A stretch of DNA of 50,971 nucleotides from Escherichia phage herni, in the sequence record NC_049823.1; one strand, given 5' to 3'. Shown one piece after another: positions 599 through 21,785 of this stretch (its first letter is position 1; each line of letters opens with the position of its first letter). The notes beneath the pieces were generated by a model, which saw only the letters and a program-made list of their open reading frames with translations, did not search any database and was not told the DNA's origin. The position numbers and the translations under genes are program-made.

Positions 599-1297
599 TC
601 AGCAACAGCCAGTAAGCGGAGTCTGAGGAGTAGGCAACTTGAAGTTTACCAGTTGCTCGACCTGGTTGATTTTGCAATTCAGTGCGGCGGTCTGGTTTGC
701 CTGAGATAGAGCAAATCGCGCCTCCTGCAACTGAGCTTTCATATCGCAAATCAAAACAGCCTGAGCATCAGCGAACTGTTGGCGCATCAGATCTCGCGTT
801 GCATTGCCTTGTCGCTCAATATTCAGGTTTGTCTCACAGCAACATCTCTCCGCTGCAATCTGTGCCTGATAGGAACGCTCAAGAGCATTAACATCAGCAG
901 CATTAATCGCAGCAACTGTTTGGTTAGTACCGCTAACAATCGCGGTATTCAGTCCGGCGAAACCTTGCACCGATGCAAGCAGGTTTTGCGTATTCTGGCT
1001 GGTAATGCCGTTAAAGGTTGATGCGGCGGAGCGCTCAACGGCAAGGTTTGTTGAGTTTTGGCCTTGCAGAGTTTGCAGCCCCAGGTTGTTTACTCCTGTC
1101 TGGATGTTATTAATACCATCAAGAACAGCGTTAGCACCGACAGCAACAGCCGCACCATCACCACCATAACCACCACGACCATTAAAGCCGTTACCAAACC
1201 ATGACCCAATCAGGCCGCCAACAGCACCGCCAAGACCAGCCGCGCCAGCTTCGCCACCAAAACCACCACCAGTAGGGAGTAAAGTCATATCTGACAT
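599..1297 (-). CDS. glycine-rich hypothetical protein, possibly tail-fibre associated
   Basis: ORF track; N-terminal 60 aa are Gly-rich (GGGFGGEAGAAGLGGAVGGLIGSWFGNGFNGRGGYGGDG), Cys cluster near C-terminus; AAAGAGGAA Shine-Dalgarno; lies directly downstream of the tail fibre gene. Confidence 0.55.
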   Translation of the reverse strand: MSDMTLLPTGGGFGGEAGAAGLGGAVGGLIGSWFGNGFNGRGGYGGDGAAVAVGANAVLDGINNIQTGVNNLGLQTLQGQNSTNLAVERSAASTFNGITSQNTQNLLASVQGFAGLNTAIVSGTNQTVAAINAADVNALERSYQAQIAAERCCCETNLNIERQGNATRDLMRQQFADAQAVLICDMKAQLQEARFALSQANQTAALNCKINQVEQLVNFKLPTPQTPLTGCC

Positions 1298-4570: not shown

Positions 4571-4616
4571 ATAGCATTTTTTGTTAAACGATGATTTAAT
4601 GATTGTGTATTATACA
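4571..4616 (+). promoter_or_regulatory. conserved intergenic motif copy (ATAGCATTTTTTGTTAAA) plus ATTATA hexamer 22 nt downstream
   Basis: Matches the repeated motif; co-oriented with the helicase gene. Confidence 0.4.
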
Positions 4617-4646
4617 CACCAAATGGCATTACTCAAAGGTTTTAGA

Positions 4647-6686
4647 ATGATTCCAAACATTGAAAAGCAAATATCAGCACTTGGTGAAGCGGTAATTAAA
4701 TCCATTCAGGAGCGATTCACTGTTGGAGAGATTGTGCCTTACCCTTACCAGTGCGTTGCATACGCTGAGATCGCAAAGCGTATGAAAAATTATGAGCATC
4801 CATTCTTTGTTAAAGCGTCCGTATCGGCTGGCAAAACATTGATGTTTGCAATGGTTGCTCACCAGTGCCGGAAAATGGGCTTGAAAATGATGGTCCTTGC
4901 TCGCCAGGCTGAGATTGTGGATCAGGATTCTGAAGAGATAACAAATATTGGTGTGCCGAACTCCATCTATTGTGCAGGACTGAAGACAAAAAGCGCATAC
5001 TTTCCGATCGTTGTTGGTTCTGAGGGAACTGTAGTTAATGGACTGTTTAAAGCGCTTGGCGACTATGTTCCGCACGTTATCGGGATTGACGAGTGTCACC
5101 AGGTGGATTGGGAAGACCTTGCCGACGCAATAGAGAAAGACGAATCATTTTTACAAATGACGACGAAGAAAGGCGAAAAAGTACCAAATCCAGATTATGA
5201 CATAACGAGCGATAACGAATGCGAAGAGTTCCTGATTGGTGAGGATGGCTTACCAATGGAGGGAACAGGCCGCACGCAATACACTGTTATTATCATGGAA
5301 ATGATGCGACGTTGCAGGAAAGCATATGGTCATGAACTGCGCATCTTTGGTATGACTGGTTCGGAGTTTCGCGGAGTAGTCCCGATCCTAGTAGAAGACA
5401 AAAAACAGAAAGGATTCTGGCGTGAACAGGTTACTAATATTGACACCAACTACCTGATCAAATTCGGTTCTGTTGTGCCAACAAATTTTGGCGACGTTGG
5501 CGATCTAGGGTATGACCTTTCAGAGTTTGAGGCATCCAGCGAGGATGGCGTCGCAGACTTTGACGCTAAAACGCTTCGCAGGATGGAACAAAAAATTCAT
5601 GAAGAAGCGACCATGACAAAGCGCATCATGGCGAAAGTTCACGAGATCTGTAAAAACCGTAACGGCGTACTTGTGACATGTGCAGGAGAAAGGCATTGCA
5701 AAGAGGCAGCGGCGGCATTGCCACCTGGAACGACTTACAGGATCATTACTGGTAAGACTGGCGACAACCAGCGCAAGGAGTGGTTGAGGGAAGCATACGA
5801 AGGGAAGGTAAAATACATCTTCCAGGTTCAGGCGCTAACTACTGGCGTTAACGTGCCGTTTTGGGATACGTCTGTTATTCTGCGTAAGATTGGATCGCTA
5901 ACTTTGCTGATTCAGCTTTTAGGACGCGGAATGCGACTTCTTAAGAAATGGCATAAGGAACAAGGCTTCAAGAAAGATGATCACCTGGTTATGGATTTTT
6001 CAGGAACGATGGACGAGTTAGGTGAGCTTTATTTTGATCCGATACTGGAACAGGCGCAACATCAGAAGCGATTCAGGAACGGTAAAGATCCGAAGCCTTG
6101 TCCTGTTTGCGGAACTCTTAATAGCTATTATGCTCGTCGTTGTATGCACGTAGACGAAAACGGCAACAGATGCGAGTGGTTCTTTAAATTCAGGACATGT
6201 GATGATCAGATTGACACGCGCACTAAAAAGATTATTCAGCGCGGTTGTGGAACGAAAAATGATATTGCGGCCAGGGTATGCAGACATTGCGACATGTCAT
6301 TGATTGACCCTAACGAGAAGTTAAGCGGAAAGCACTACACAAAAAACGACTGGTTTCAGGTGCAATCTTTCTCGGTTGACATGACGAAAAACCAGAAAGG
6401 GATAATATTTAATTATGAGCTTTCCGATGGCATAGACACTTTCAGGGCGAGAGAGATATTTTTCCCTGAATCTGAGAGCCAAATTTGCCGCGCAAAATGG
6501 CGAAGCGTTGCTCTTAAGCACATACCAGATCGCCGTGTTGCTGGCATGGTGGCGAGCTATCGTAATGCACGTAAAATCATGCAATATGTGAATCACATCA
6601 TGCCACCATCGCGTGTAACTCACCGCAAGACTAGCAAGGGTGAAGATAATTTGTACAAGAAGGACTTTAATTATGGCAATGACTGA
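4647..6686 (+). CDS. superfamily 2 DNA helicase with C-terminal zinc-ribbon region
   Basis: Walker A SVSAGKT, DExH box IDECHQ, C-terminal CxxC pairs; start ambiguous (ATG 4623 with no Shine-Dalgarno, or ATG 4647 with AAAGG; track start TTG 4581 lies inside the upstream motif). Confidence 0.7.
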   Translation: MIPNIEKQISALGEAVIKSIQERFTVGEIVPYPYQCVAYAEIAKRMKNYEHPFFVKASVSAGKTLMFAMVAHQCRKMGLKMMVLARQAEIVDQDSEEITNIGVPNSIYCAGLKTKSAYFPIVVGSEGTVVNGLFKALGDYVPHVIGIDECHQVDWEDLADAIEKDESFLQMTTKKGEKVPNPDYDITSDNECEEFLIGEDGLPMEGTGRTQYTVIIMEMMRRCRKAYGHELRIFGMTGSEFRGVVPILVEDKKQKGFWREQVTNIDTNYLIKFGSVVPTNFGDVGDLGYDLSEFEASSEDGVADFDAKTLRRMEQKIHEEATMTKRIMAKVHEICKNRNGVLVTCAGERHCKEAAAALPPGTTYRIITGKTGDNQRKEWLREAYEGKVKYIFQVQALTTGVNVPFWDTSVILRKIGSLTLLIQLLGRGMRLLKKWHKEQGFKKDDHLVMDFSGTMDELGELYFDPILEQAQHQKRFRNGKDPKPCPVCGTLNSYYARRCMHVDENGNRCEWFFKFRTCDDQIDTRTKKIIQRGCGTKNDIAARVCRHCDMSLIDPNEKLSGKHYTKNDWFQVQSFSVDMTKNQKGIIFNYELSDGIDTFRAREIFFPESESQICRAKWRSVALKHIPDRRVAGMVASYRNARKIMQYVNHIMPPSRVTHRKTSKGEDNLYKKDFNYGND

Positions 6687-7092
6687 TAAAGGCGATTATC
6701 TGGAGTTTTACGAAAGAGATCCGACGGATACGCTAAAAGAGGAATCACACCAGATCGGGGCGTTTCAATGGTTGACTTATGCTTACCCTGAATTGCTGGC
6801 ATGGCATACGAAAAACGAGGGCGACAAGGGGATCGCCACCGCAATGATGGATCAGCAAGCCGGACTCGTTAAGGGCGTAAGTGATTTTATCATCCTGATT
6901 GGATTAAAAGGCCGTTATCCGTTTGCAGCAATTGAGATGAAGCGCGTCAATAAGTCTGGAAAGGGTAAGGCTTCACCAGTCAGTAAGGAGCAAAAAGCCT
7001 TCTTACGACGTGTGCGCGAGCTTGGCGGATTCGCTGCCGTAACATACGGATATAAGCAATTCATGATCGCTGTAGAATACATGATGAAATAG
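6673..7092 (+). CDS. VRR-NUC domain nuclease
   Basis: PD-(D/E)XK-like core GVSDFIIL...IEMK; start at MAMTDKG (AAGGA Shine-Dalgarno) overlaps the helicase stop. Confidence 0.55.
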   Translation: MAMTDKGDYLEFYERDPTDTLKEESHQIGAFQWLTYAYPELLAWHTKNEGDKGIATAMMDQQAGLVKGVSDFIILIGLKGRYPFAAIEMKRVNKSGKGKASPVSKEQKAFLRRVRELGGFAAVTYGYKQFMIAVEYMMK

Positions 7093-7132
7093 CACTTTTT
7101 GTTAAAACAGGCGCGAAGGATTGCGCCATAAT
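7087..7132 (+). promoter_or_regulatory. conserved intergenic motif AAATAGCACTTTTTGTTAAAAC, hairpin GGCGC-n8-GCGCC, CATAAT
   Basis: Motif contains the TAG stop of the upstream gene; ATAAT-like hexamer lies about 35 nt upstream of the Dam gene start. Confidence 0.45.
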
Positions 7133-7166: not shown

Positions 7167-7868
7167 ATGATCAAAGAAACCGAAGTGACATTTGAACAAA
7201 TCGAACGAGAAACATTCATTGGCAATGCTCTTGCTACCGGAGGCTATTACCAGGCTGTTAAACCAAATCAATATTATAAAGTCACTGGCAACCGCTATAA
7301 CGGCAGCAATACGCCGGACGTTGTGCGAGATTTGTGGTCTACGCCGTCTGAGCTTGTCGCATGGATGGAAATCGAATACGGTGATTATGACATCGACGCT
7401 GCGGCAAGCAAAGAAAATGCTGTATGTGAAAAATTCTACAGCAAGGAAACAAATTGCTTAAAGCGTTGGTGGGGTAGTAATAAGCATATCTGGCTGAATC
7501 CACCGTACAGCAATATAACGCCTTTCGTTAAGAAAGCGATTGAGCAAATGGAGCACAATAACCAGATCGACATTCTGTTACCTTGCGACACATCGACAGG
7601 ATGGTTTTATGAGGCACAACAGAAAGCAGCGGAAATAATCTGGATCACTGGCGAAGTTTACCAGGAGGAAGGAATAGAATATTCCAGAACTGGACGGCTT
7701 GCTTTCACTTCAGCGCTTACAGGTAAACCAGTGCAGGGAAACAACAAAGGAAGCGTTATTTTCATCATGCGCGAACTTAAAGAAGGTGAGCAGCAGAAAA
7801 CTCGATACGTTAAGATCAGCGACATTTGCCCGTCAGTGGCAGAGCGTCGAGCAAGAAAGCGGAGTTAA
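7167..7868 (+). CDS. dam: phage Dam-type DNA N6-adenine methyltransferase
   Basis: WLNPPYS catalytic motif (NPPY) and overall phage Dam-family layout; AGGTAA Shine-Dalgarno. Confidence 0.75.
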   Translation: MIKETEVTFEQIERETFIGNALATGGYYQAVKPNQYYKVTGNRYNGSNTPDVVRDLWSTPSELVAWMEIEYGDYDIDAAASKENAVCEKFYSKETNCLKRWWGSNKHIWLNPPYSNITPFVKKAIEQMEHNNQIDILLPCDTSTGWFYEAQQKAAEIIWITGEVYQEEGIEYSRTGRLAFTSALTGKPVQGNNKGSVIFIMRELKEGEQQKTRYVKISDICPSVAERRARKRS

Positions 7869-8607: not shown

Positions 8608-8682
8608 ATGTGGCGTTTGTTACTTTTGCCCTTACCTGTTATGATGGCGATCTCTATTGTATATGTTGTCATAATGAGATAA
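8608..8682 (+). CDS. possible 24-aa hydrophobic micro-protein
   Basis: MWRLLLLPLPVMMAISIVYVVIMR; GAGGA Shine-Dalgarno 8 nt upstream. Confidence 0.25.
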   Translation: MWRLLLLPLPVMMAISIVYVVIMR

Positions 8683-8694
8683 GGAGAATTTTTG

Positions 8695-9810
8695 ATGAAG
8701 CAAATCAAAATCACAGATGAACAATTTATCAATGAGCGCAAGCAGGGAAAGACATATAAGCAGATAGCTAATGAGTATGGTATGAACGTTCGCAGCATTG
8801 AGCGACGCGCAGCGCGACTTGCAAAGCAAGGTAAAGTTACAACCATCGGATCACCTGGCTTTGGCGTTACTGGAGAATCAAAGCTAATTGATAAAGATGG
8901 CAATGTGGTTATGACATGGATTAAGACAAGCAAGGACCGCGAGCAGTTAGAAGCATTAATGCAGGCCGCTATGGATGCATTTAGCGAAGAAGTTCCGCGA
9001 CTTGATCCGCAACCAGAATCACAAAAGGATTATAGCGAGACGTTATCACTGTATCCGATCTTTGACATGCACTTGGGCGCAATGGCGCATAAGCATGAAT
9101 GCGGAGAGAATTGGGATACAGCAACAGCAGAGCGCGTAATGAATAATTTCATTGATTATTCTATCCAGTGCGCGCCGGATAGCGAAAAAGCTGTTTTGCT
9201 GATTGGTGGCGATATGCTTCACAGTGACGGACTTGAAGCGGTTACACCTGCAAGCGGTCACGTATTGGATCAAGATAGTCGATACGCAAAACTTGTTTAT
9301 GTTGCCATCCGGTCAGTGCGTCGAGCAATCACAAAGCTGTTATCAAAACATAAAAACGTAGAGATTCAGATAATTGAAGGCAACCACGACCAAAGCGGCA
9401 TGATCTGGTTGCGCGCAGCAATGGCGGCAGCATATGAGAATGAGCCGCGAGTGCATGTTGATGTGTCTCCGCGAGTGGTTCATCACACACAATATGGCAA
9501 AACATTCCTGGCATACCATCATGGGCACACTATCCGCAAGCCTGAAACATTGCTCATGATGTGTGCGGCAGACTGGCGCGAAGACTTCGGAAATTCAAAA
9601 ATGATGTATGCTCACGTAGGGCACTGGCATCATCAGACAGTAACTGAAACAAGCCTGGGCATTGTTGAAGTGCATAGCACTATGGCGGCAAAAGATGCAT
9701 ATGCGGCGCGCGGTGGATGGCGTTCTCGACGCCGTGCGGCTGTTATTGTTTACGATGAAGAATACGGAGAGGTAGGGCGATTTATGCATTATCCAGAAAT
9801 GGCTTATTGA
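8695..9810 (+). CDS. HTH domain fused to calcineurin-like metallophosphoesterase
   Basis: N-terminal HTH (KTYKQIANEYGMNVRSIERRAARL); phosphoesterase motifs FDMHLG, GGDMLHSDG, EGNHDQ, GHWHHQ; AAGGAGA Shine-Dalgarno. Confidence 0.7.
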   Translation: MKQIKITDEQFINERKQGKTYKQIANEYGMNVRSIERRAARLAKQGKVTTIGSPGFGVTGESKLIDKDGNVVMTWIKTSKDREQLEALMQAAMDAFSEEVPRLDPQPESQKDYSETLSLYPIFDMHLGAMAHKHECGENWDTATAERVMNNFIDYSIQCAPDSEKAVLLIGGDMLHSDGLEAVTPASGHVLDQDSRYAKLVYVAIRSVRRAITKLLSKHKNVEIQIIEGNHDQSGMIWLRAAMAAAYENEPRVHVDVSPRVVHHTQYGKTFLAYHHGHTIRKPETLLMMCAADWREDFGNSKMMYAHVGHWHHQTVTETSLGIVEVHSTMAAKDAYAARGGWRSRRRAAVIVYDEEYGEVGRFMHYPEMAY

Positions 9811-9853: not shown

Positions 9854-9884
9854 GGGCGTGGCATTTTGCTTCGCCCTTTTTTTA
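9854..9884 (+). terminator. rho-independent terminator
   Basis: Hairpin GGGCG-n13-CGCCC followed by TTTTTTTATT. Confidence 0.6.
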
Positions 9885-9956: not shown

Positions 9957-10172
9957 ATGAAAGATTTTTTAAACGCTGCAACTTCCGGCACTGGCGGAGC
10001 GTCAATCACTGGCGCGGTAACTGGTCAAACAACTATTGCAATAGCCAGCTTCGTTTTGATGGCTGCATTTGGTATGTGGGGCGCTTATCTTCGCTGGCGT
10101 GATAGTAAGGCGCTACGTGACGCGCTTGAATGCGGTGATATTAAGAAAGCTATTGAGATCAGAGGTAAATAA
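9957..10172 (+). CDS. holin (likely pinholin partner of the SAR endolysin)
   Basis: 71 aa, hydrophobic segment [21 protein letters not shown], charged C-terminus; immediately upstream of and overlapping the endolysin start. Confidence 0.6.
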
Positions 10173-10660
10173 TGAGTATAAAACAAAGAGTGACCGCTGC
10201 GGCTTTTGGCGTTGCTCTTGCCCTTACTTCTCCGCTACTGGAGGAAATAGAAGGAGTAAAACATAAGCCGTACAAAGATATTGCTGGGGTATGGACGGTT
10301 TGCGCCGGAATAACTGGCCCTGACGTAATACAAGGCAAAACGTACACACAAAGAGAGTGCGATGCACTACTGGCGAAGCATATCAAGATCGCAAAGGATG
10401 AAGTTGATAAGCGTGTAAAGGTTGACATTCCTGATACAATGCGCGCAGCAATGTATTCATTCACATACAATGCTGGAACTGGAGCTTTTAGAAATTCAAC
10501 CATGCTTAAGCTGATTAATAACGGTCGTTATATGGAAGCGTGCGATCAGTTATGGAGATGGACAAAATACACCAATCCAAAAACAGGAAAGAAAGAAACG
10601 TCTAAAGGACTGCGCAACCGCCGCGCGGTGGAATTTAAATATTGCATTAAGGATCTGTAA
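10172..10660 (+). CDS. SAR endolysin (T4-type lysozyme fold with signal-anchor-release N-terminus)
   Basis: Weakly hydrophobic Gly/Ala-rich N-terminal segment [17 protein letters not shown] followed by E-x8-D-x5-T catalytic spacing ([19 protein letters not shown]). Confidence 0.8.
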
Positions 10661-10662
10661 TT

Positions 10663-11061
10663 ATGCGAAAGTTATCAATAATCGCTATCGCTGTTATTTT
10701 GTCTGGATGTTCAAGCGTTACGCCACTGACCGGATTAATAGGTAGCAAGCCGGAAATCACAGCACAGGCAGGATCGGAGAACGTAAAGCAGGCCGTTGGC
10801 GTTACCGCAAAGCAGGACACCAGCACAAAACAGGAAACTACAATAAAGGAATCTGCGGTTGATAAGGTGGACACTTCCAGCAAGAAGGATTTCACTACGT
10901 CAACCATTCATGCAAACACCATCAAGGCTGATAAAATCCAGGTTGTGCAGGGTGAGCAAAGGAAGTGGTACGATCCTATAATCTATTGCGCTGCAATTTT
11001 CAGTGGTCTTTTGTCAATGCTTTACTTTTCCTACCGCAAAGGCAACGAAAAGGAGGCTTAA
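10663..11061 (+). CDS. unimolecular spanin (outer-membrane lipoprotein with C-terminal transmembrane helix)
   Basis: Lipobox LSGC at N-terminus, Thr/Lys-rich linker, C-terminal helix IIYCAAIFSGLLSMLYF; architecture of the T1 gp11 class. Confidence 0.65.
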   Translation: MRKLSIIAIAVILSGCSSVTPLTGLIGSKPEITAQAGSENVKQAVGVTAKQDTSTKQETTIKESAVDKVDTSSKKDFTTSTIHANTIKADKIQVVQGEQRKWYDPIIYCAAIFSGLLSMLYFSYRKGNEKEA

Positions 11062-14199: not shown

Positions 14200-14220
14200 T
14201 TTTAACAAAAAGTGCTATTT
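14200..14220 (-). promoter_or_regulatory. conserved intergenic motif (minus orientation) with hairpin GCCAGG-n7-CCTGGC and ATAAT
   Basis: TTTTAACAAAAAGTGCTATTT; contains the stop of the methyltransferase gene. Confidence 0.45.
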
Positions 14221-14925
14221 TGCGTTTGCTTCAAAGACGGCGCGAGCAAAACCGCGCGGTGTGAGGGAGCGGATCATCTTTGTGCGAGACGATTTTCCGC
14301 CAGTTTTGGCCCAACCAGGATTATCCTTGTCGCCATCTTTAGGAATGATTGTTGCGCGCGGAGGAATAACAAATCCGTTTCCAGTCCAAAGGCATGTTTT
14401 CTTAAAGTACCGATCCCGTGCCGGAATAATATCAGGAAAGTCGGGATGTTTATCATCTTCCGGCAGATAGCCAGCATAATCGCACGGATGGAACGTATAA
14501 TCAGGCTTGCGCCATAGCGTTGACAGCTTGCCTACAGGATTCTCTATCATGTACGGAACACCGAAATAATCAGCAATTTGCGCCGCTATTTTGCAAGTGT
14601 CGGCGGCTTCATCCTGGAACGATGGATTCTCAATGCGTTTTTTAGCCCAATGGCGAGATCCGCTATTTGCAAGGTCAGTGCATGGAGGGAACGCCATAAT
14701 AAAATCAGGCTTACCCCAATTTTCAAGTTTTGCGGTATATTTGAATAGATCATCAATCCACGCGTTAACGTAAAAGATATTGTCATGGATTATGCGCACT
14801 GAGTGGTAATCACCGTGATCAGCATCATCGTAATTAAAGCAAATGCATTTATATCCAGCATCAGCCCAATCTTTAACGGCTTTACCAGATCCATCAAACA
14901 AAGAGAAAATTAAACCCTTATACAT
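14215..14925 (-). CDS. putative DNA cytosine-5 methyltransferase
   Basis: Motif I-like FSLFDGSG, motif IV-like FPPCTDLANSG (PC dipeptide), motif VI-like IENPVG; GAGGTGA Shine-Dalgarno. Confidence 0.55.
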   Translation of the reverse strand: MYKGLIFSLFDGSGKAVKDWADAGYKCICFNYDDADHGDYHSVRIIHDNIFYVNAWIDDLFKYTAKLENWGKPDFIMAFPPCTDLANSGSRHWAKKRIENPSFQDEAADTCKIAAQIADYFGVPYMIENPVGKLSTLWRKPDYTFHPCDYAGYLPEDDKHPDFPDIIPARDRYFKKTCLWTGNGFVIPPRATIIPKDGDKDNPGWAKTGGKSSRTKMIRSLTPRGFARAVFEANAK

Positions 14926-18268: not shown

Positions 18269-18304
18269 TCATCCAGTTTAAACGCAACAAAAGGAGTAGA
18301 TGCT

Positions 18305-18790
18305 ATGAGCGAAGAAAATATTAGCACCATGTCGCGTAGTGAGTTTTGCGATATGCTTCGCGACTTGGGCGCGGCAATTGGTAGTGGTGAGCGTAATAAT
18401 GTATTCATGCCAGCACTTTTTTTGTGCGCTAATGTGGAGAACGGCGAAGCAATTACGGCATCGTACATGCGCCAAGTTGTCAACCGTGTGCCAGAAGTAA
18501 AGCAAAAAGGCGTGATCAGCATTAAGCGAAAGGTGACTGATGAGGGTGATGGCTTTGTGTTTACGCTCACCGAAGCCAAAAGCAAGCCTCGCGTTCTGAC
18601 TGGTGAAGAAATCGACGAGATCGCAGAAAAGCGCGCAGAGAAGGCGGTAAGCAAAATTCTTAATCACCTGGTAAACGTAATGCCAAATATCACAGACATG
18701 GAAGGCGACAAACTTGCTGGAGCGTGTGAGGCTATCGGGCGCTACCAGGATATGATTCGTAAACTCGCTGGAGGAAAAGAGGATGAATAA
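18305..18790 (+). CDS. hypothetical protein (161 aa), first gene of the rightward small-gene block
   Basis: Start at MSEENIS with AAGGAG Shine-Dalgarno; the track start 18245 lies in the promoter. Confidence 0.55.
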   Translation: MSEENISTMSRSEFCDMLRDLGAAIGSGERNNVFMPALFLCANVENGEAITASYMRQVVNRVPEVKQKGVISIKRKVTDEGDGFVFTLTEAKSKPRVLTGEEIDEIAEKRAEKAVSKILNHLVNVMPNITDMEGDKLAGACEAIGRYQDMIRKLAGGKEDE

Positions 18791-19043
18791 GGCATTAATT
18801 GGAGTTTTGATTGCAATTGCTACCCTGACCGGATGCGAAAAGGCATCTGAATCAACAGTTGTCGTAGGAGTGGAGTCAGATTTTAAAGTCGATCGCCTGT
18901 TTACTGTTGATGGATGCACTGCGTACCGATTCTATGACAACGGTCGAGCAATCTATTACACCAATTGTAAGGGAGCAACGGATAGCACATACCGCAGCGG
19001 CAAAAACGTAATGCACCAACAAGTCACAACAGATATGAAATAG
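18783..19043 (+). CDS. lipoprotein (86 aa)
   Basis: Signal peptide plus lipobox LTGC; stop embedded in the next motif copy. Confidence 0.6.
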   Translation: MNKALIGVLIAIATLTGCEKASESTVVVGVESDFKVDRLFTVDGCTAYRFYDNGRAIYYTNCKGATDSTYRSGKNVMHQQVTTDMK

Positions 19044-19600: not shown

Positions 19601-20548
19601 ATGTTAAAACTTGCTGACATTAAATTCCCGATCACCTTCGAATCTCGCGGCGTTGGTCATTTCATGTTTACCGACGAGAATACATGCACTAAGTTTAACG
19701 AATACGGAAATCCAGACGCTTCAACAATGGAGATTGAACACTTCATTGATGCGCATAACAAGCATTACAATTCGCTAAAAGACTACGGCTATGCAATGCC
19801 AGGATACACCTGTTTTCACTACAAGCAATATAAAGGCCAGGTGTTACCAATGCGCGCACAGGACATTGCGAGCGCTGCGACTTATGCGCGGGCAATTCAC
19901 GCGCCAGAGAATGCAGAGCCACTAGTAAAAATGCACGCCTGCGACTACAAAAAATTGTGGTGCTTAAGTGTGGATAACATCAAGTATCCGATCGTATTCC
20001 GCACGGTTGGTAACTCAACGATTCGCTATACGTCACCAGACAACGGCGTTTATAGCGATGGTACGAAATCAGAGTTGAAAGTTGATTTCTTTGTCAATGG
20101 TCACAACAAATTCAATCCACACAATGAAGAAGATAAGGTGTACTACGTGGAAGACATTACAAAACACTTGTTTGGGGAAACACCATTCGGCGGCGGAAAA
20201 ACGTCAATTCAAAAAATCATTGGCGATGAGATCCACAAGGCAGCCGTTGAAATGAAAGCGCCTGGAGGCTGTAAGATTGATAAAAGCGACCTTATCACCA
20301 TTCGTTCAAAGATTGGCGGAGTTGAATACGAGGGAAAAATTGAAAAAATGCCGCTCGGCGCTTCAATCATCGGCATCAAAGACGACAACGGCGATTGGCA
20401 TGATGTTTCTTTCCCGATCAAGCGTATCGAAGTGCTAGACGACTTGATTTGCCTCCTGGCGCATCATGGCAGCTATAAGAACAATCCGTTCTCCGCAGAG
20501 CTAAACATTAAGCGCGGAACGATGGTTAAGTGGAAGGTGAAAGTGTAA
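19601..20548 (+). CDS. hypothetical protein (315 aa)
   Basis: ORF track; AGGAGA Shine-Dalgarno; no family recognised. Confidence 0.6.
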   Translation: MLKLADIKFPITFESRGVGHFMFTDENTCTKFNEYGNPDASTMEIEHFIDAHNKHYNSLKDYGYAMPGYTCFHYKQYKGQVLPMRAQDIASAATYARAIHAPENAEPLVKMHACDYKKLWCLSVDNIKYPIVFRTVGNSTIRYTSPDNGVYSDGTKSELKVDFFVNGHNKFNPHNEEDKVYYVEDITKHLFGETPFGGGKTSIQKIIGDEIHKAAVEMKAPGGCKIDKSDLITIRSKIGGVEYEGKIEKMPLGASIIGIKDDNGDWHDVSFPIKRIEVLDDLICLLAHHGSYKNNPFSAELNIKRGTMVKWKVKV

Positions 20549-20852: not shown

Positions 20853-21060
20853 GCGCGTTAAGCACAAGTTTATTGATAATCATCGCGATGCACTTGAGGT
20901 ATATAAGTTCGGCGATCGCGTGTTTATTGATGGCACGTTTGAAGGTGGGCGCAGGCCGGATTTTAGGTCGATACTAACCATTGACCAGGTGCGCAAGCTG
21001 GCGGATAAGTTAAATGATCTGGCAGATGAAATCGAATACAAGCAAATTCATTTTAATTGA
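20839..21060 (+). CDS. hypothetical protein (73 aa)
   Basis: ORF track; GAGGTGA Shine-Dalgarno. Confidence 0.5.
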   Translation: METNKRVKHKFIDNHRDALEVYKFGDRVFIDGTFEGGRRPDFRSILTIDQVRKLADKLNDLADEIEYKQIHFN

Positions 21061-21071
21061 TAGGTTTGATA

Positions 21072-21785
21072 ATGAAAAAATACGAATTTGAACTTTGGGG
21101 CAGCAAATACCATTTTTCCACGAGCAAGCCGATTGTTATCGTTGACCTGGACGGAACGTTATCAGACGGAACGCATCGCTTGCACCTGCTTCCGACAGAA
21201 GATTTGCACCTTACAGAAAGCTGGTCTGAGTTCAATAAGGCGGCTGTTGGCGATTCGCCGATTAAGAGCACGGTTGCAGTGGTTAACGGTTTGTGGATGT
21301 CTGGATTTGCCATCGTTATCCTGACCGGACGCAGCGATGAAGTGATGGAGGACACCTGCAAATGGCTTAACGAAAACGGCATCAAGTACGATGCGTTAAT
21401 CATGCGCCGCAAGGAAGACAACCGCAAAGACACAATCATCAAAGAAGAAGTCTTGCGCGCTATCGGACTGGAAAACATTGTGTGCGCTTTTGATGATTCG
21501 CCGAACGTGGTTAAGCACTTCCGCAGCCTGGGAATCACAACCTATCAGGTCACGGAATACGACAAGCCACATAGTCACATCCAATCGCACGGCGTTGAAG
21601 CAATCAAGATCACGAAGCGCGCCCGATTCGTTGGCAGCAAAGACAGCCTTGTGAATTCCAGCTTTACTAGAGGAATAACCTATGACGTTGTTTCTTATCA
21701 TGACAAGAGCTTTATAGTTCATGATGATTCTGGATGCGCCTGGTCATTCGATCATAGTGACGGCGATTTTGTTAATGCTGAATAG
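21072..21785 (+). CDS. HAD-superfamily phosphatase (Pnk-phosphatase or nucleotidase-like)
   Basis: HAD motif I VIVDLDGTLSD near N-terminus; start at MKKYEF (ATG 21072), the track start 21057 is TTG. Confidence 0.55.
   Translation: MKKYEFELWGSKYHFSTSKPIVIVDLDGTLSDGTHRLHLLPTEDLHLTESWSEFNKAAVGDSPIKSTVAVVNGLWMSGFAIVILTGRSDEVMEDTCKWLNENGIKYDALIMRRKEDNRKDTIIKEEVLRAIGLENIVCAFDDSPNVVKHFRSLGITTYQVTEYDKPHSHIQSHGVEAIKITKRARFVGSKDSLVNSSFTRGITYDVVSYHDKSFIVHDDSGCAWSFDHSDGDFVNAE

What the first reader, a model, noticed from the sequence alone, without database searches (positions are those of the whole stretch)
8695..9810. HTH domain fused to a calcineurin-like metallophosphoesterase with no visible SbcC-like partner
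The N-terminus has a clear HTH (KTYKQIANEYGMNVRSIERRAARL) and the rest carries the phosphoesterase motif set (DxH, GDxxH, GNHD, GH, GHxH). Mre11/SbcD-type nucleases normally pair with an SMC-like ATPase, which is not evident here. A DNA-targeted phosphoesterase could act in recombination or repair, or as a nuclease or cyclic-nucleotide phosphodiesterase in host takeover or anti-defence.
Basis: partly seen in the sequence, partly recalled or inferred. Interest (0 to 1): 0.55.

Follow-up and report, generated by a model that had tools for sequence, protein, structure and literature searches.

The report
Phage T1-type HTH-tethered metallophosphoesterase nuclease
This gene encodes a DNA-binding domain fused to an intact two-metal phosphoesterase that most resembles DNA nucleases and works without an ATPase partner; it is the orthologue of phage T1 ORF16, is present in thousands of phage genomes, and has never been characterised, so it is real but not a new discovery.

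Summary
ORF 8695-9810 (+), 371 aa, encodes an N-terminal three-helix HTH, a floppy linker, a beta-hairpin/helix module and a metallophosphoesterase (MPE) core. All seven metal ligands are invariant across 133 representatives that share 30-58% identity with it. The window is a nearly complete T1-like phage genome (Hanrivervirus), and it contains no SbcC/Rad50-like ATPase.

The protein is the orthologue of phage T1 ORF16. It belongs to PHROG 704 ('DNA repair exonuclease'), which matches 2041 phage records and 4637 clusters at 50% identity. It is a persistent core gene of Drexlerviridae.

The evidence points to a DNA nuclease. The best structural matches are PolD DP1, Mre11 and SbcD. The only sequence-level matches are T. 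maritima Mre11/SbcD and the ligase-associated endonuclease PdeM. The two histidines needed for DNA cleavage in PdeM are conserved. The gene sits in replication/recombination modules.

It fails membership of Mre11/SbcD: it has no capping domain, no Rad50-binding tail and no partner. It works like the stand-alone MPE nucleases (P. putida MPE, mycobacteriophage gp48), with an added HTH tether.

A cyclic-nucleotide phosphodiesterase or protein phosphatase role is less likely but not excluded. I found no experimental study of this family. Interest is modest.

The parts
8681..8686 (+). Shine-Dalgarno sequence AAGGAG, 8 nt upstream of the ATG
   Evidence: read directly from the sequence
8695..9810 (+). 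CDS of the HTH-metallophosphoesterase, 371 aa; orthologue of phage T1 ORF16 and member of PHROG 704
   Evidence: phrog_704 E=5.9e-151, full length; 99.9% nt identity to the region containing vB_EcoS_G29-2 gp67; 99.7% aa identity to the G29-2 gene product; T1 ST16
8716..8826 (+). N-terminal three-helix HTH domain (aa 8-44; sigma-70 region 4 / LuxR-GerE-like). The segment aa 1-57 has pI 10.3.
   Evidence: AF2 helices 8-16, 21-28 and 32-44 with pLDDT about 95; HTH_28 E=0.0026; family profile vs PDB GerE E=0.021; members reach Sigma70_r4_2 1.5e-9 and GerE 2.4e-8; pI
8827..8865 (+). flexible linker (aa 45-57) between the HTH and the rest of the protein
   Evidence: the pLDDT block for aa 51-60 averages 57, and no secondary structure is predicted for aa 45-57
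8866..8985 (+). beta-hairpin (aa 58-78; G69 and W75 are 95% conserved) plus helix (aa 82-97). This is a family-specific module preceding the catalytic core.
9034..9807 (+). metallophosphoesterase catalytic core (aa 114-371), with no capping domain after it
9064..9078 (+). motif I, D124-M-H126-L-G128 (metal ligands D124 and H126)
   Evidence: invariant in 133 representatives
9208..9222 (+). motif II, G172-D173-M-L-H176 (bridging D173). H176 corresponds to His81 of P. putida MPE, which is essential for DNA cleavage.
   Evidence: D173 invariant and H176 96% conserved; 135 of 143 representatives have H at this position; PMC7826289
9244..9282 (+). family-specific conserved segment T184-P-x-S-G-H-x-L191-D192-x-D194-x-R196, between motifs II and III
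   Evidence: T184 99%, L191 95%, D192 98%, D194 92%, R196 98%. It aligns with the 'HSRNNPSVVALHDLLDYLKR' stretch of T. maritima Mre11.
9379..9390 (+). motif III, G229-N230-H231-D232 (N230 is a metal ligand; H231 is the putative general acid)
   Evidence: N230 and H231 invariant. The equivalent His113 of P. putida MPE is essential for nuclease activity.
9517..9528 (+). motif IV, H275-H276-G277-H278 (H276 is a metal ligand)
   Evidence: H276 invariant
9619..9630 (+). motif V, G309-H310-W-H312 (both histidines are metal ligands)
   Evidence: H312 invariant, H310 95%
9854..9883 (+). terminator-like hairpin GGGCG...CGCCC followed by U7. It ends the transcription unit before the lysis cassette.
   Evidence: MFE -16 kcal/mol, z = -2.2; T1 has an annotated rho-independent terminator at the equivalent place

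Best explanation
The gene encodes a stand-alone, Rad50/SbcC-independent DNA phosphodiesterase (nuclease) of the binuclear metallophosphoesterase superfamily.

Proposed mechanism:
- Two divalent metal ions (probably Mn2+) are held by D124, H126, D173, N230, H276, H310 and H312 and activate a bridging water.
- H231 (motif III) protonates the leaving group.
- H176 (GDxxH) positions the DNA phosphate or H231.
- A basic N-terminal HTH, joined by a roughly 13-residue flexible linker, tethers the catalytic core to DNA. The HTH would thus replace the DNA-clamping role that Rad50/SbcC and the capping domain play for Mre11/SbcD.

Proposed biological role: the enzyme is made from the replication/recombination gene block and processes DNA during phage replication. 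It either trims ends, flaps or single-stranded regions for recombination-dependent replication, or degrades host DNA for takeover and nucleotide salvage.

What is shown: the architecture, the intact and selected active site, the structural neighbourhood, the genomic contexts, and the absence of a partner.

What is inferred: DNA as the substrate, the tethering role of the HTH, and the biological process.
For: 1. All metal ligands are invariant, and both 'nuclease histidines' (H176, H231) are conserved across 133 diverse representatives. In P. putida MPE the equivalent His81 and His113 are essential for DNA cleavage but not for bis-pNPP hydrolysis (PMC7826289).

3. The profile of the MPE core matches only T. 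maritima Mre11/SbcD (E=0.01, motifs I-II and beyond) and P. putida nuclease MPE (E=0.32) among the MPE structures in the PDB. The only two other hits below E=1, a proteasome beta-5 subunit (E=0.37) and a calcium-binding protein (E=0.57), are not MPEs. Among NCBIfam models, the only enzyme family hit by members is PdeM (18 of 101, best E=1.6e-5).

4. The HTH is supported at family level. About 134 of 142 representatives have at least 120 residues before motif I.

5. The contexts are DNA-metabolic:
- SF2 helicase, VRR-NUC, Dam, three small ORFs, then this gene, in the window.
- Between replication protein O and a DnaB helicase in mEp013 and E. coli prophages.
- gp6-like exonuclease, endonuclease, MPE, PNK/3'-phosphatase, dNMP kinase, ligase in Erwinia phage Tapenade.
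- Holliday-junction resolvase, ligase, MPE in Campylobacter phage F341.
- RecE-like nuclease, AAA_24, MPE in L006.
- Cas4, DEAD helicase and, two genes downstream, MPE in L015.

6. There are precedents. Mycobacteriophage A10ZJ24 gp48, a partner-less MPE, degrades dsDNA in vitro and the host genome in vivo (PMC12287305). Bxb1 gp47 is required for phage DNA replication (Savinov 2012, cited).

7. The gene is persistent in 508 of 522 Drexlerviridae (PMC13164509).
Against: - No biochemical or genetic data exist for any member of this family; ten literature searches found none.
- Sequence links to Mre11/SbcD and PdeM are borderline and rest mostly on shared motifs.
- The MPE core is mildly acidic (pI 6.3). 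I could not examine surface electrostatics or a DNA-binding groove.
- MPE enzymes are notoriously promiscuous. D29 gp66 hydrolyses monoesters, diesters and cAMP (cited).
- In several phages the gene lies beside lysis, terminase or Q genes rather than nuclease genes.
- The HTH could serve autoregulation or protein binding rather than substrate tethering.
Confidence: 0.55

Rival explanations
1. It is a nucleotide-signal phosphodiesterase used as counter-defence. The MPE core would hydrolyse cyclic mono-, di- or oligonucleotides (CBASS, Pycsar or type III CRISPR signals) or related messengers. The HTH would serve autoregulation.
Confidence: 0.12
2. It is a protein phosphatase or other non-nucleic-acid hydrolase. 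It would be a functional analogue of lambda NinI (Ser/Thr phosphatase) that modifies host or phage proteins at the early-to-late switch.
For: It occupies the same slot as lambda NinI: the last gene before antiterminator Q in lambdoid contigs L017/L018 (compared). In Drexlerviridae it lies immediately upstream of the lysis cassette. In RcRios and Dhillonvirus it lies just downstream of the lysis cassette, and in Vibrio phage K366 it is flanked by endolysin genes.
Confidence: 0.08
3. It is primarily a DNA-binding regulator or replication-initiation factor. The HTH would recognise a specific phage site (origin or promoter) and the MPE domain would nick or remodel there, or would be used only as a scaffold, as in Bxb1 gp47 or the eukaryotic polymerase B-subunits.
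For: The HTH is of the sigma-70 region 4 / LuxR type. The gene lies between replication protein O and the DnaB helicase in mEp013-type phages. T1-like genomes have no annotated initiator. DP1 and the polymerase B-subunits are among the best structural matches.
Against: Invariant catalytic residues argue against a purely structural role. No iterons or repeated candidate binding sites occur in or around the gene. Some family members lack the HTH altogether (Campylobacter phage F341, 317 aa). The mEp phages already encode an O-type initiator.
Confidence: 0.12

Closest known systems
Mre11 / SbcD (nuclease subunit of Mre11-Rad50 / SbcCD; also T4 gp47, T5 D13)
   Different: There is no capping domain, no C-terminal helix-loop-helix for Rad50/SbcC binding, and no SMC-like ATPase gene in the genome or in any sampled context. 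An HTH and a hairpin module are added at the N-terminus. The family HMM gives E. coli SbcD only 1.7 bits.
PdeM / P. putida MPE (ligase-associated, Mn-dependent ssDNA endonuclease; PDB 6NVO)
   Same: It is a stand-alone MPE nuclease without a capping domain or ATPase partner. GDxxH and GNH histidines are present. It is the only curated enzyme family hit by family members (18 of 101). It is associated with ligase or end-healing genes in some phages.
Archaeal PolD small subunit DP1 (3'-5' proofreading exonuclease)
   Different: Identity is 15%. There is no DP2 partner, and T1-like phages encode no polymerase at all. DP1 has an OB-fold N-terminal domain rather than an HTH.
Cluster A mycobacteriophage MPEs (A10ZJ24 gp48, Bxb1 gp47, D29 gp66)
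   Same: They are partner-less phage MPEs encoded in the early/replication region. gp48 is a dsDNA nuclease that degrades host DNA (PMC12287305). gp47 is needed for phage DNA replication (Savinov 2012, cited).
   Different: They form a different family: about 255 aa, no HTH, and motif I without His in Bxb1 gp47. The family HMM gives only 10.3 bits. Bxb1 gp47 is reported to lack phosphoesterase activity.
Lambda NinI (lambda Ser/Thr protein phosphatase)
   Same: It is a phage MPE in the same genomic slot, the last early gene before Q and the lysis genes.
   Different: It belongs to the PPP-type motif set, has no HTH, gives no detectable sequence similarity (-1.5 bits), and is structurally more distant.

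Membership tests
Binuclear metallophosphoesterase (calcineurin-like) superfamily | Five motifs supplying seven metal ligands (D-x-H, G-D, G-N-H, H, G-H-x-H) | tested here: met
   All are present in the query. They are invariant or at least 95% conserved in 133 representatives.
Binuclear metallophosphoesterase (calcineurin-like) superfamily | Beta-sandwich MPE fold | tested here: met
Binuclear metallophosphoesterase (calcineurin-like) superfamily | Pfam Metallophos match above the gathering score | tested here: not met
   The query scores 14.2 bits against a cut-off of 21.5. Only 22 of 101 members reach E<=0.01. The family is a divergent branch that the Pfam model does not capture.
PHROG 704 ('DNA repair exonuclease') / phage T1 ORF16 family | Full-length profile match | tested here: met
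   E=5.9e-151 over aa 5-369 against profile positions 3-388 of 390. The T1 orthologue is ST16.
Mre11 / SbcD | MPE nuclease domain with the GDxxH and GNHD histidines | tested here: met
   H176 and H231 are conserved. Motifs I-II align to T. maritima Mre11.
Mre11 / SbcD | Capping domain following the nuclease domain | tested here: not met
Mre11 / SbcD | SMC-like ATPase partner (Rad50/SbcC/gp46), usually encoded adjacently | tested here: not met
   None was found in the window. None was found in about 15 contexts of homologues.
Mre11 / SbcD | Significant sequence match to family models | tested here: not met
   No NCBIfam SbcD or Mre11 model was hit by any of 101 members. The PDB profile hit is only E=0.01 and partial. 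E. coli SbcD scores 1.7 bits.
Mre11 / SbcD | Homodimer through the nuclease domain | not testable with these tools
   Only monomer prediction was available.
PdeM (TIGR04123, ligase-associated endonuclease) | Score above the curated cut-off (150 bits) | tested here: not met
   19.9 bits, covering the motif III region only. The best member reaches E=1.6e-5.
PdeM (TIGR04123, ligase-associated endonuclease) | Operon with Lhr-Core helicase, ATP-dependent ligase and exonuclease | tested here: not met
   The window has an SF2 helicase upstream but no ligase. A ligase is adjacent only in the Campylobacter phage and Tapenade homologues.
Class III cyclic-nucleotide phosphodiesterase (CpdA/Icc/Rv0805) | Sequence match to CpdA/Icc models and closest structural similarity | tested here: not met
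PPP-type Ser/Thr phosphatase (lambda NinI) | GDxxDRG and GNHE motifs, with similarity to lambda phosphatase | tested here: not met
Helix-turn-helix DNA-binding domains (sigma-70 r4 / LuxR-GerE / HTH_28 clan) | Tri-helical HTH fold with a sequence match | tested here: met
   AF2 predicts three helices. The query is sub-threshold (18.3 bits against 25), but members reach E=1.5e-9 and the profile against GerE gives E=0.021.
Helix-turn-helix DNA-binding domains (sigma-70 r4 / LuxR-GerE / HTH_28 clan) | Actual DNA binding | not testable with these tools
   Needs EMSA or ChIP.

The most novel reading that the evidence does not exclude
The HTH-MPE family is a widespread, previously unrecognised class of DNA-tethered, ATPase-independent phage nuclease. 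In this reading it is required for phage genome replication: it either creates or processes the DNA ends or nicks that start recombination-dependent replication in phages lacking a classical initiator, or it shreds the host chromosome to shut off defence gene expression, as shown for the unrelated mycobacteriophage gp48. The co-encoded 3'-phosphatase (PNKP-like) would heal the 3'-PO4 ends it produces.
Probability: 0.25. Interest if true: 0.55.

Novelty: new member of a known kind. Interest (0 to 1): 0.3.

Why it matters
The family is very large: 4637 clusters at 50% identity and 2041 phage records. It is a core gene of T1-like phages, which are widely used in phage therapy and notorious as laboratory contaminants, and it also occurs in common E. 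coli prophages. No member has been studied, and the label 'DNA repair exonuclease' is propagated purely by homology. Showing what it does would explain a conserved step in the replication or host takeover of many siphophages and podophages. It would also add an HTH-tethered solution to the ways MPE nucleases engage DNA. It is not a surprise to specialists, because stand-alone MPE nucleases are already documented.

Tried and rejected
- Single-sequence searches against the PDB gave nothing useful.
- hhalign of the family profile against single sequences of E. coli SbcD and lambda NinI had no power (probabilities 3% and 1%), so I did not use those results.
- The afdb50 fold library was unavailable.
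- Pfam on A1 exceeded the size limit, so I redid it on A4.
- PADLOC gave no match.
- A repeat search around the gene found no iterons or obvious HTH operator sites.
- Base composition is unremarkable, so there is no sign of recent acquisition.
- A suspected intron or homing-endonuclease split of the gene in phage vB_EcoS-22664B1 turned out to be a simple frameshift into two abutting ORFs.
- Literature searches for functional work on the T1-type protein found only genome-annotation mentions.
- I considered and rejected a purely structural, RDF-like role as in Bxb1 gp47, because every catalytic residue is invariant.
- I considered and rejected use of the host SbcC as a partner, because the SbcC-binding C-terminal region and the capping domain are absent.

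Full report
**What the window is.** The 50,971-bp window is a nearly complete genome of a T1-like siphophage (Drexlerviridae, Tempevirinae, Hanrivervirus). The 1.8 kb around the finding is 99.9% identical to Escherichia phage vB_EcoS_G29-2 and 96-98% identical to pSf-1, slyngel, haarsle and others. The annotation of G29-2 and of T1 itself gives the gene order around the finding:
- SF2 helicase (window 4581-6686)
- VRR-NUC nuclease (6640-7092)
- Dam methyltransferase (7167-7868)
- three small ORFs
- the target gene (8695-9810)
- a terminator-like hairpin (9854-9883)
- holin, endolysin and spanin (9957-11061)

**Check of the observation.** The ORF is real and the coordinates are exact. ATG is at 8695 behind an AAGGAG box, the stop codon ends at 9810, and the product is 371 aa. 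The quoted HTH peptide and all five phosphoesterase motifs are present (D124xH126, G172D173xxH176, G229N230H231D232, H275H276GH278, G309H310xH312).

For the query alone, Pfam is only sub-threshold (HTH_28 E=0.0026; Metallophos E=0.063). The family-level evidence is strong:
- An exhaustive phmmer search of 1.84 billion cluster representatives found 4637 clusters at E<=1e-3 and 1030 at E<=1e-30.
- In an alignment of 133 of these sharing 30-58% identity with the query, D124, H126, D173, N230, H231, H276 and H312 are invariant. H310, H176 and D232 are at least 93% conserved.
- Scanning 101 members individually, HTH families reach E=1.5e-9 (Sigma70_r4_2), 2.4e-8 (GerE) and 2.6e-7 (HTH_8). Metallophos reaches 2.7e-5.

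So both halves of the observation are confirmed, and the active site is under strong purifying selection. The absence of an SbcC/Rad50-like ATPase is also confirmed. None is annotated in the near-identical genome. A Pfam scan of ten window ORFs of more than 200 aa outside the annotated head, tail and packaging genes found none.

**Anatomy.** AlphaFold2 with the 133-sequence alignment gives a confident model (mean pLDDT 93, pTM 0.83):
- a three-helix bundle (helices 8-16, 21-28, 32-44);
- a low-confidence linker (aa 45-57, pLDDT about 57);
- a beta-hairpin (58-78, carrying the 95%-conserved G69 and W75) and a helix (82-97);
- the MPE sandwich from aa 114 to the C-terminus.

Nothing follows the MPE core. 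There is therefore no capping domain and no C-terminal helix-loop-helix of the kind Mre11/SbcD use to bind Rad50/SbcC. The HTH segment is basic (pI 10.3) and the core is mildly acidic (pI 6.3). About 134 of 142 representatives have at least 120 residues ahead of motif I, so the N-terminal extension is the rule. A few members, such as Campylobacter phage F341 (317 aa), lack the HTH.

**Which branch of the MPE superfamily.** Three independent comparisons point to the DNA-nuclease branch.
- A profile of the MPE core alone matches only T. maritima Mre11/SbcD (E=0.01) and P. putida nuclease MPE (E=0.32) among the MPE structures in the PDB. The only two other hits below E=1 are a proteasome beta-5 subunit (E=0.37) and a calcium-binding protein (E=0.57), which are not MPEs. 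The Mre11 alignment covers DxHLG..W, GDLLHS and the following helix.
- Among NCBI's curated models, the only enzyme family hit by members is the ligase-associated endonuclease PdeM (18 of 101, best E=1.6e-5). No cyclic-nucleotide phosphodiesterase, protein phosphatase, LpxH or ApaH model is hit.

In P. putida MPE, the histidine of GDxxH (His81) and of GNH (His113) are essential for DNA cleavage but dispensable for hydrolysis of a generic diester (PMC7826289). Their counterparts here, H176 and H231, are 96% conserved and invariant respectively. All these links are weak in absolute terms. The protein therefore belongs to a distinct family, not to Mre11/SbcD or PdeM.

**Genomic context across the family.** Every context sampled is a phage or prophage, and none contains a Rad50/SbcC-like gene. 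DNA-metabolism neighbours recur:
- between replication protein O and a DnaB-type helicase in the mEp013/mEp021 group and in common E. coli prophages;
- gp6-like 5'-3' exonuclease, endonuclease, MPE, PNK/3'-phosphatase, dNMP kinase, DNA ligase in the SP6-like Erwinia phage Tapenade;
- Holliday-junction resolvase, ligase, MPE in Campylobacter phage F341;
- RecE-like nuclease, AAA_24, MPE;
- Cas4, DEAD helicase and, two genes downstream, MPE;
- helicase, primase..., RecA-dependent nuclease..., MPE, Q.

Equally recurrent is a position at the boundary between early and late genes:
- immediately before the lysis cassette in Drexlerviridae (the module exonuclease-holin-endolysin-spanin is present in 508 of 522 genomes; PMC13164509);
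- after the lysis genes in Rhodobacter phage RcRios and in Dhillonvirus, where terS/terL follow;
- flanked by endolysin genes in Vibrio phage K366;
- before antiterminator Q in lambdoid contigs, which is the slot occupied in lambda by NinI, another MPE.

In the window and in T1 a terminator separates the gene from the lysis genes. I therefore read the adjacency as 'last gene of the early block', not as a lysis function.

**Mechanism proposed.**
- Shown: a selected binuclear active site, a nuclease-like structural neighbourhood, a conserved HTH on a flexible tether, replication/recombination contexts, and no ATPase partner.
- Inferred: the enzyme is a metal-dependent DNA phosphodiesterase. Its HTH holds it on DNA, substituting for the clamp that Rad50/SbcC and the capping domain provide for Mre11/SbcD. 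It trims ends, flaps or ssDNA during recombination-dependent replication and/or degrades host DNA.

There are precedents for partner-less MPE nucleases. P. putida MPE is a monomer without a capping domain (PMC7826289). Mycobacteriophage A10ZJ24 gp48 degrades linear, plasmid and genomic DNA in vitro, fragments the host genome in vivo and thereby silences defence genes (PMC12287305). Bxb1 gp47 is required for phage DNA replication (Savinov et al. 2012, as cited). These mycobacteriophage proteins are analogues, not family members: the family HMM gives Bxb1 gp47 10.3 bits, E. coli SbcD 1.7 bits and lambda NinI -1.5 bits.

One speculative link remains untested. P. putida MPE leaves a mixture of 3'-PO4 and 3'-OH ends. 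T1-like phages encode a phosphatase-only PNKP homologue (window 21057-21785). In some Drexlerviridae and in Tapenade that gene lies directly after the HTH-MPE gene.

**Rivals.**
- A cyclic-nucleotide phosphodiesterase for counter-defence cannot be excluded, because MPEs are promiscuous and Rv0805/GpdQ are clear structural matches. It gets no specific support, however, and it explains neither the conserved HTH nor the core-gene status.
- A protein phosphatase like lambda NinI fits the genomic slot but not the motifs, the structure ranking or the sequence.
- A site-specific regulator or initiator role fits the HTH and the O-MPE-DnaB arrangement. No candidate binding repeats were found, and some members lack the HTH.

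**Novelty and verdict.** The object is not new. It is T1 ORF16 and PHROG 704. It is annotated as 'putative phosphoesterase' or 'DNA repair exonuclease' in hundreds of records, and it has been noted as a persistent Drexlerviridae gene. What is missing is any experimental characterisation; ten literature searches found none. The 'missing partner' is not an anomaly, and the anti-defence phosphodiesterase idea is not favoured. I rate it as a new member of a known kind (stand-alone MPE nuclease, here with an HTH tether), of modest interest.

Noticed in passing
window 21057-21785 (+): The gene annotated 'polynucleotide kinase' in relatives has only the HAD-type PNKP 3'-phosphatase domain (DLDGT motif, no Walker A). 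In other Drexlerviridae and in Erwinia phage Tapenade a PNK/phosphatase gene and a dNMP kinase gene lie directly after the HTH-MPE gene. This hints at a functional pairing with a nuclease that leaves 3'-phosphate ends.
   Followed up: partly
window 9854-9883 (+): A terminator-like hairpin (GGGCG...CGCCC followed by U7) lies between the MPE gene and the holin gene. It is not annotated in G29-2, but T1 has an annotated terminator at the equivalent position. The lysis cassette is therefore probably a separate transcription unit.
   Followed up: partly
L017 6001-7487; L018 33-2154; lambda L024 3225-4510: In lambdoid metagenomic contigs the HTH-MPE gene occupies the slot just before antiterminator Q. 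In lambda that slot holds NinI, the Ser/Thr phosphatase, which is an unrelated MPE whose role in the phage is also unknown.
   Followed up: partly
L019/L020 9001-10119; L021 (mEp013) 6001-7119: A homologue (P0059, 66% identity, 581 member sequences) is common in E. coli prophages integrated next to ogt-fnr and in the mEp021-group temperate phages. There it sits between replication protein O and a DnaB-type helicase.
   Followed up: partly
phage records MG065667.1 (Campylobacter phage A127) and 19 others; P0051 'Streptococcus phage MBBL140': Records labelled as Campylobacter or Streptococcus phages carry T1-like genes that are 79-92% identical to this coliphage gene. They are probably T1-like contaminants or host misattributions.
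   Followed up: no
L022 1492-2689 (Escherichia phage vB_EcoS-22664B1): The orthologue is split into two abutting ORFs by a frameshift. PHROGs 20703 and 20762 look like families made of such N- and C-terminal halves.
   Followed up: partly
window 599-1297 (-), 14215-14925 (-), 18278-18919 (-), 19601-20548 (+): Four ORFs of 213-315 aa have no Pfam match at E<=0.001. One of them, 14215-14925, is annotated 'DNA methyltransferase / DNA-cytosine methylase' in G29-2.
   Followed up: no
L011 5747-8684 (Salmonella Jerseyvirus KE06): In Jerseyviruses the HTH-MPE gene lies in a small opposite-strand island (superinfection immunity, MPE, HNH, hypothetical, Ant) inserted in the middle of the tail genes. 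This is an unusual location for a replication-type gene.
   Followed up: no
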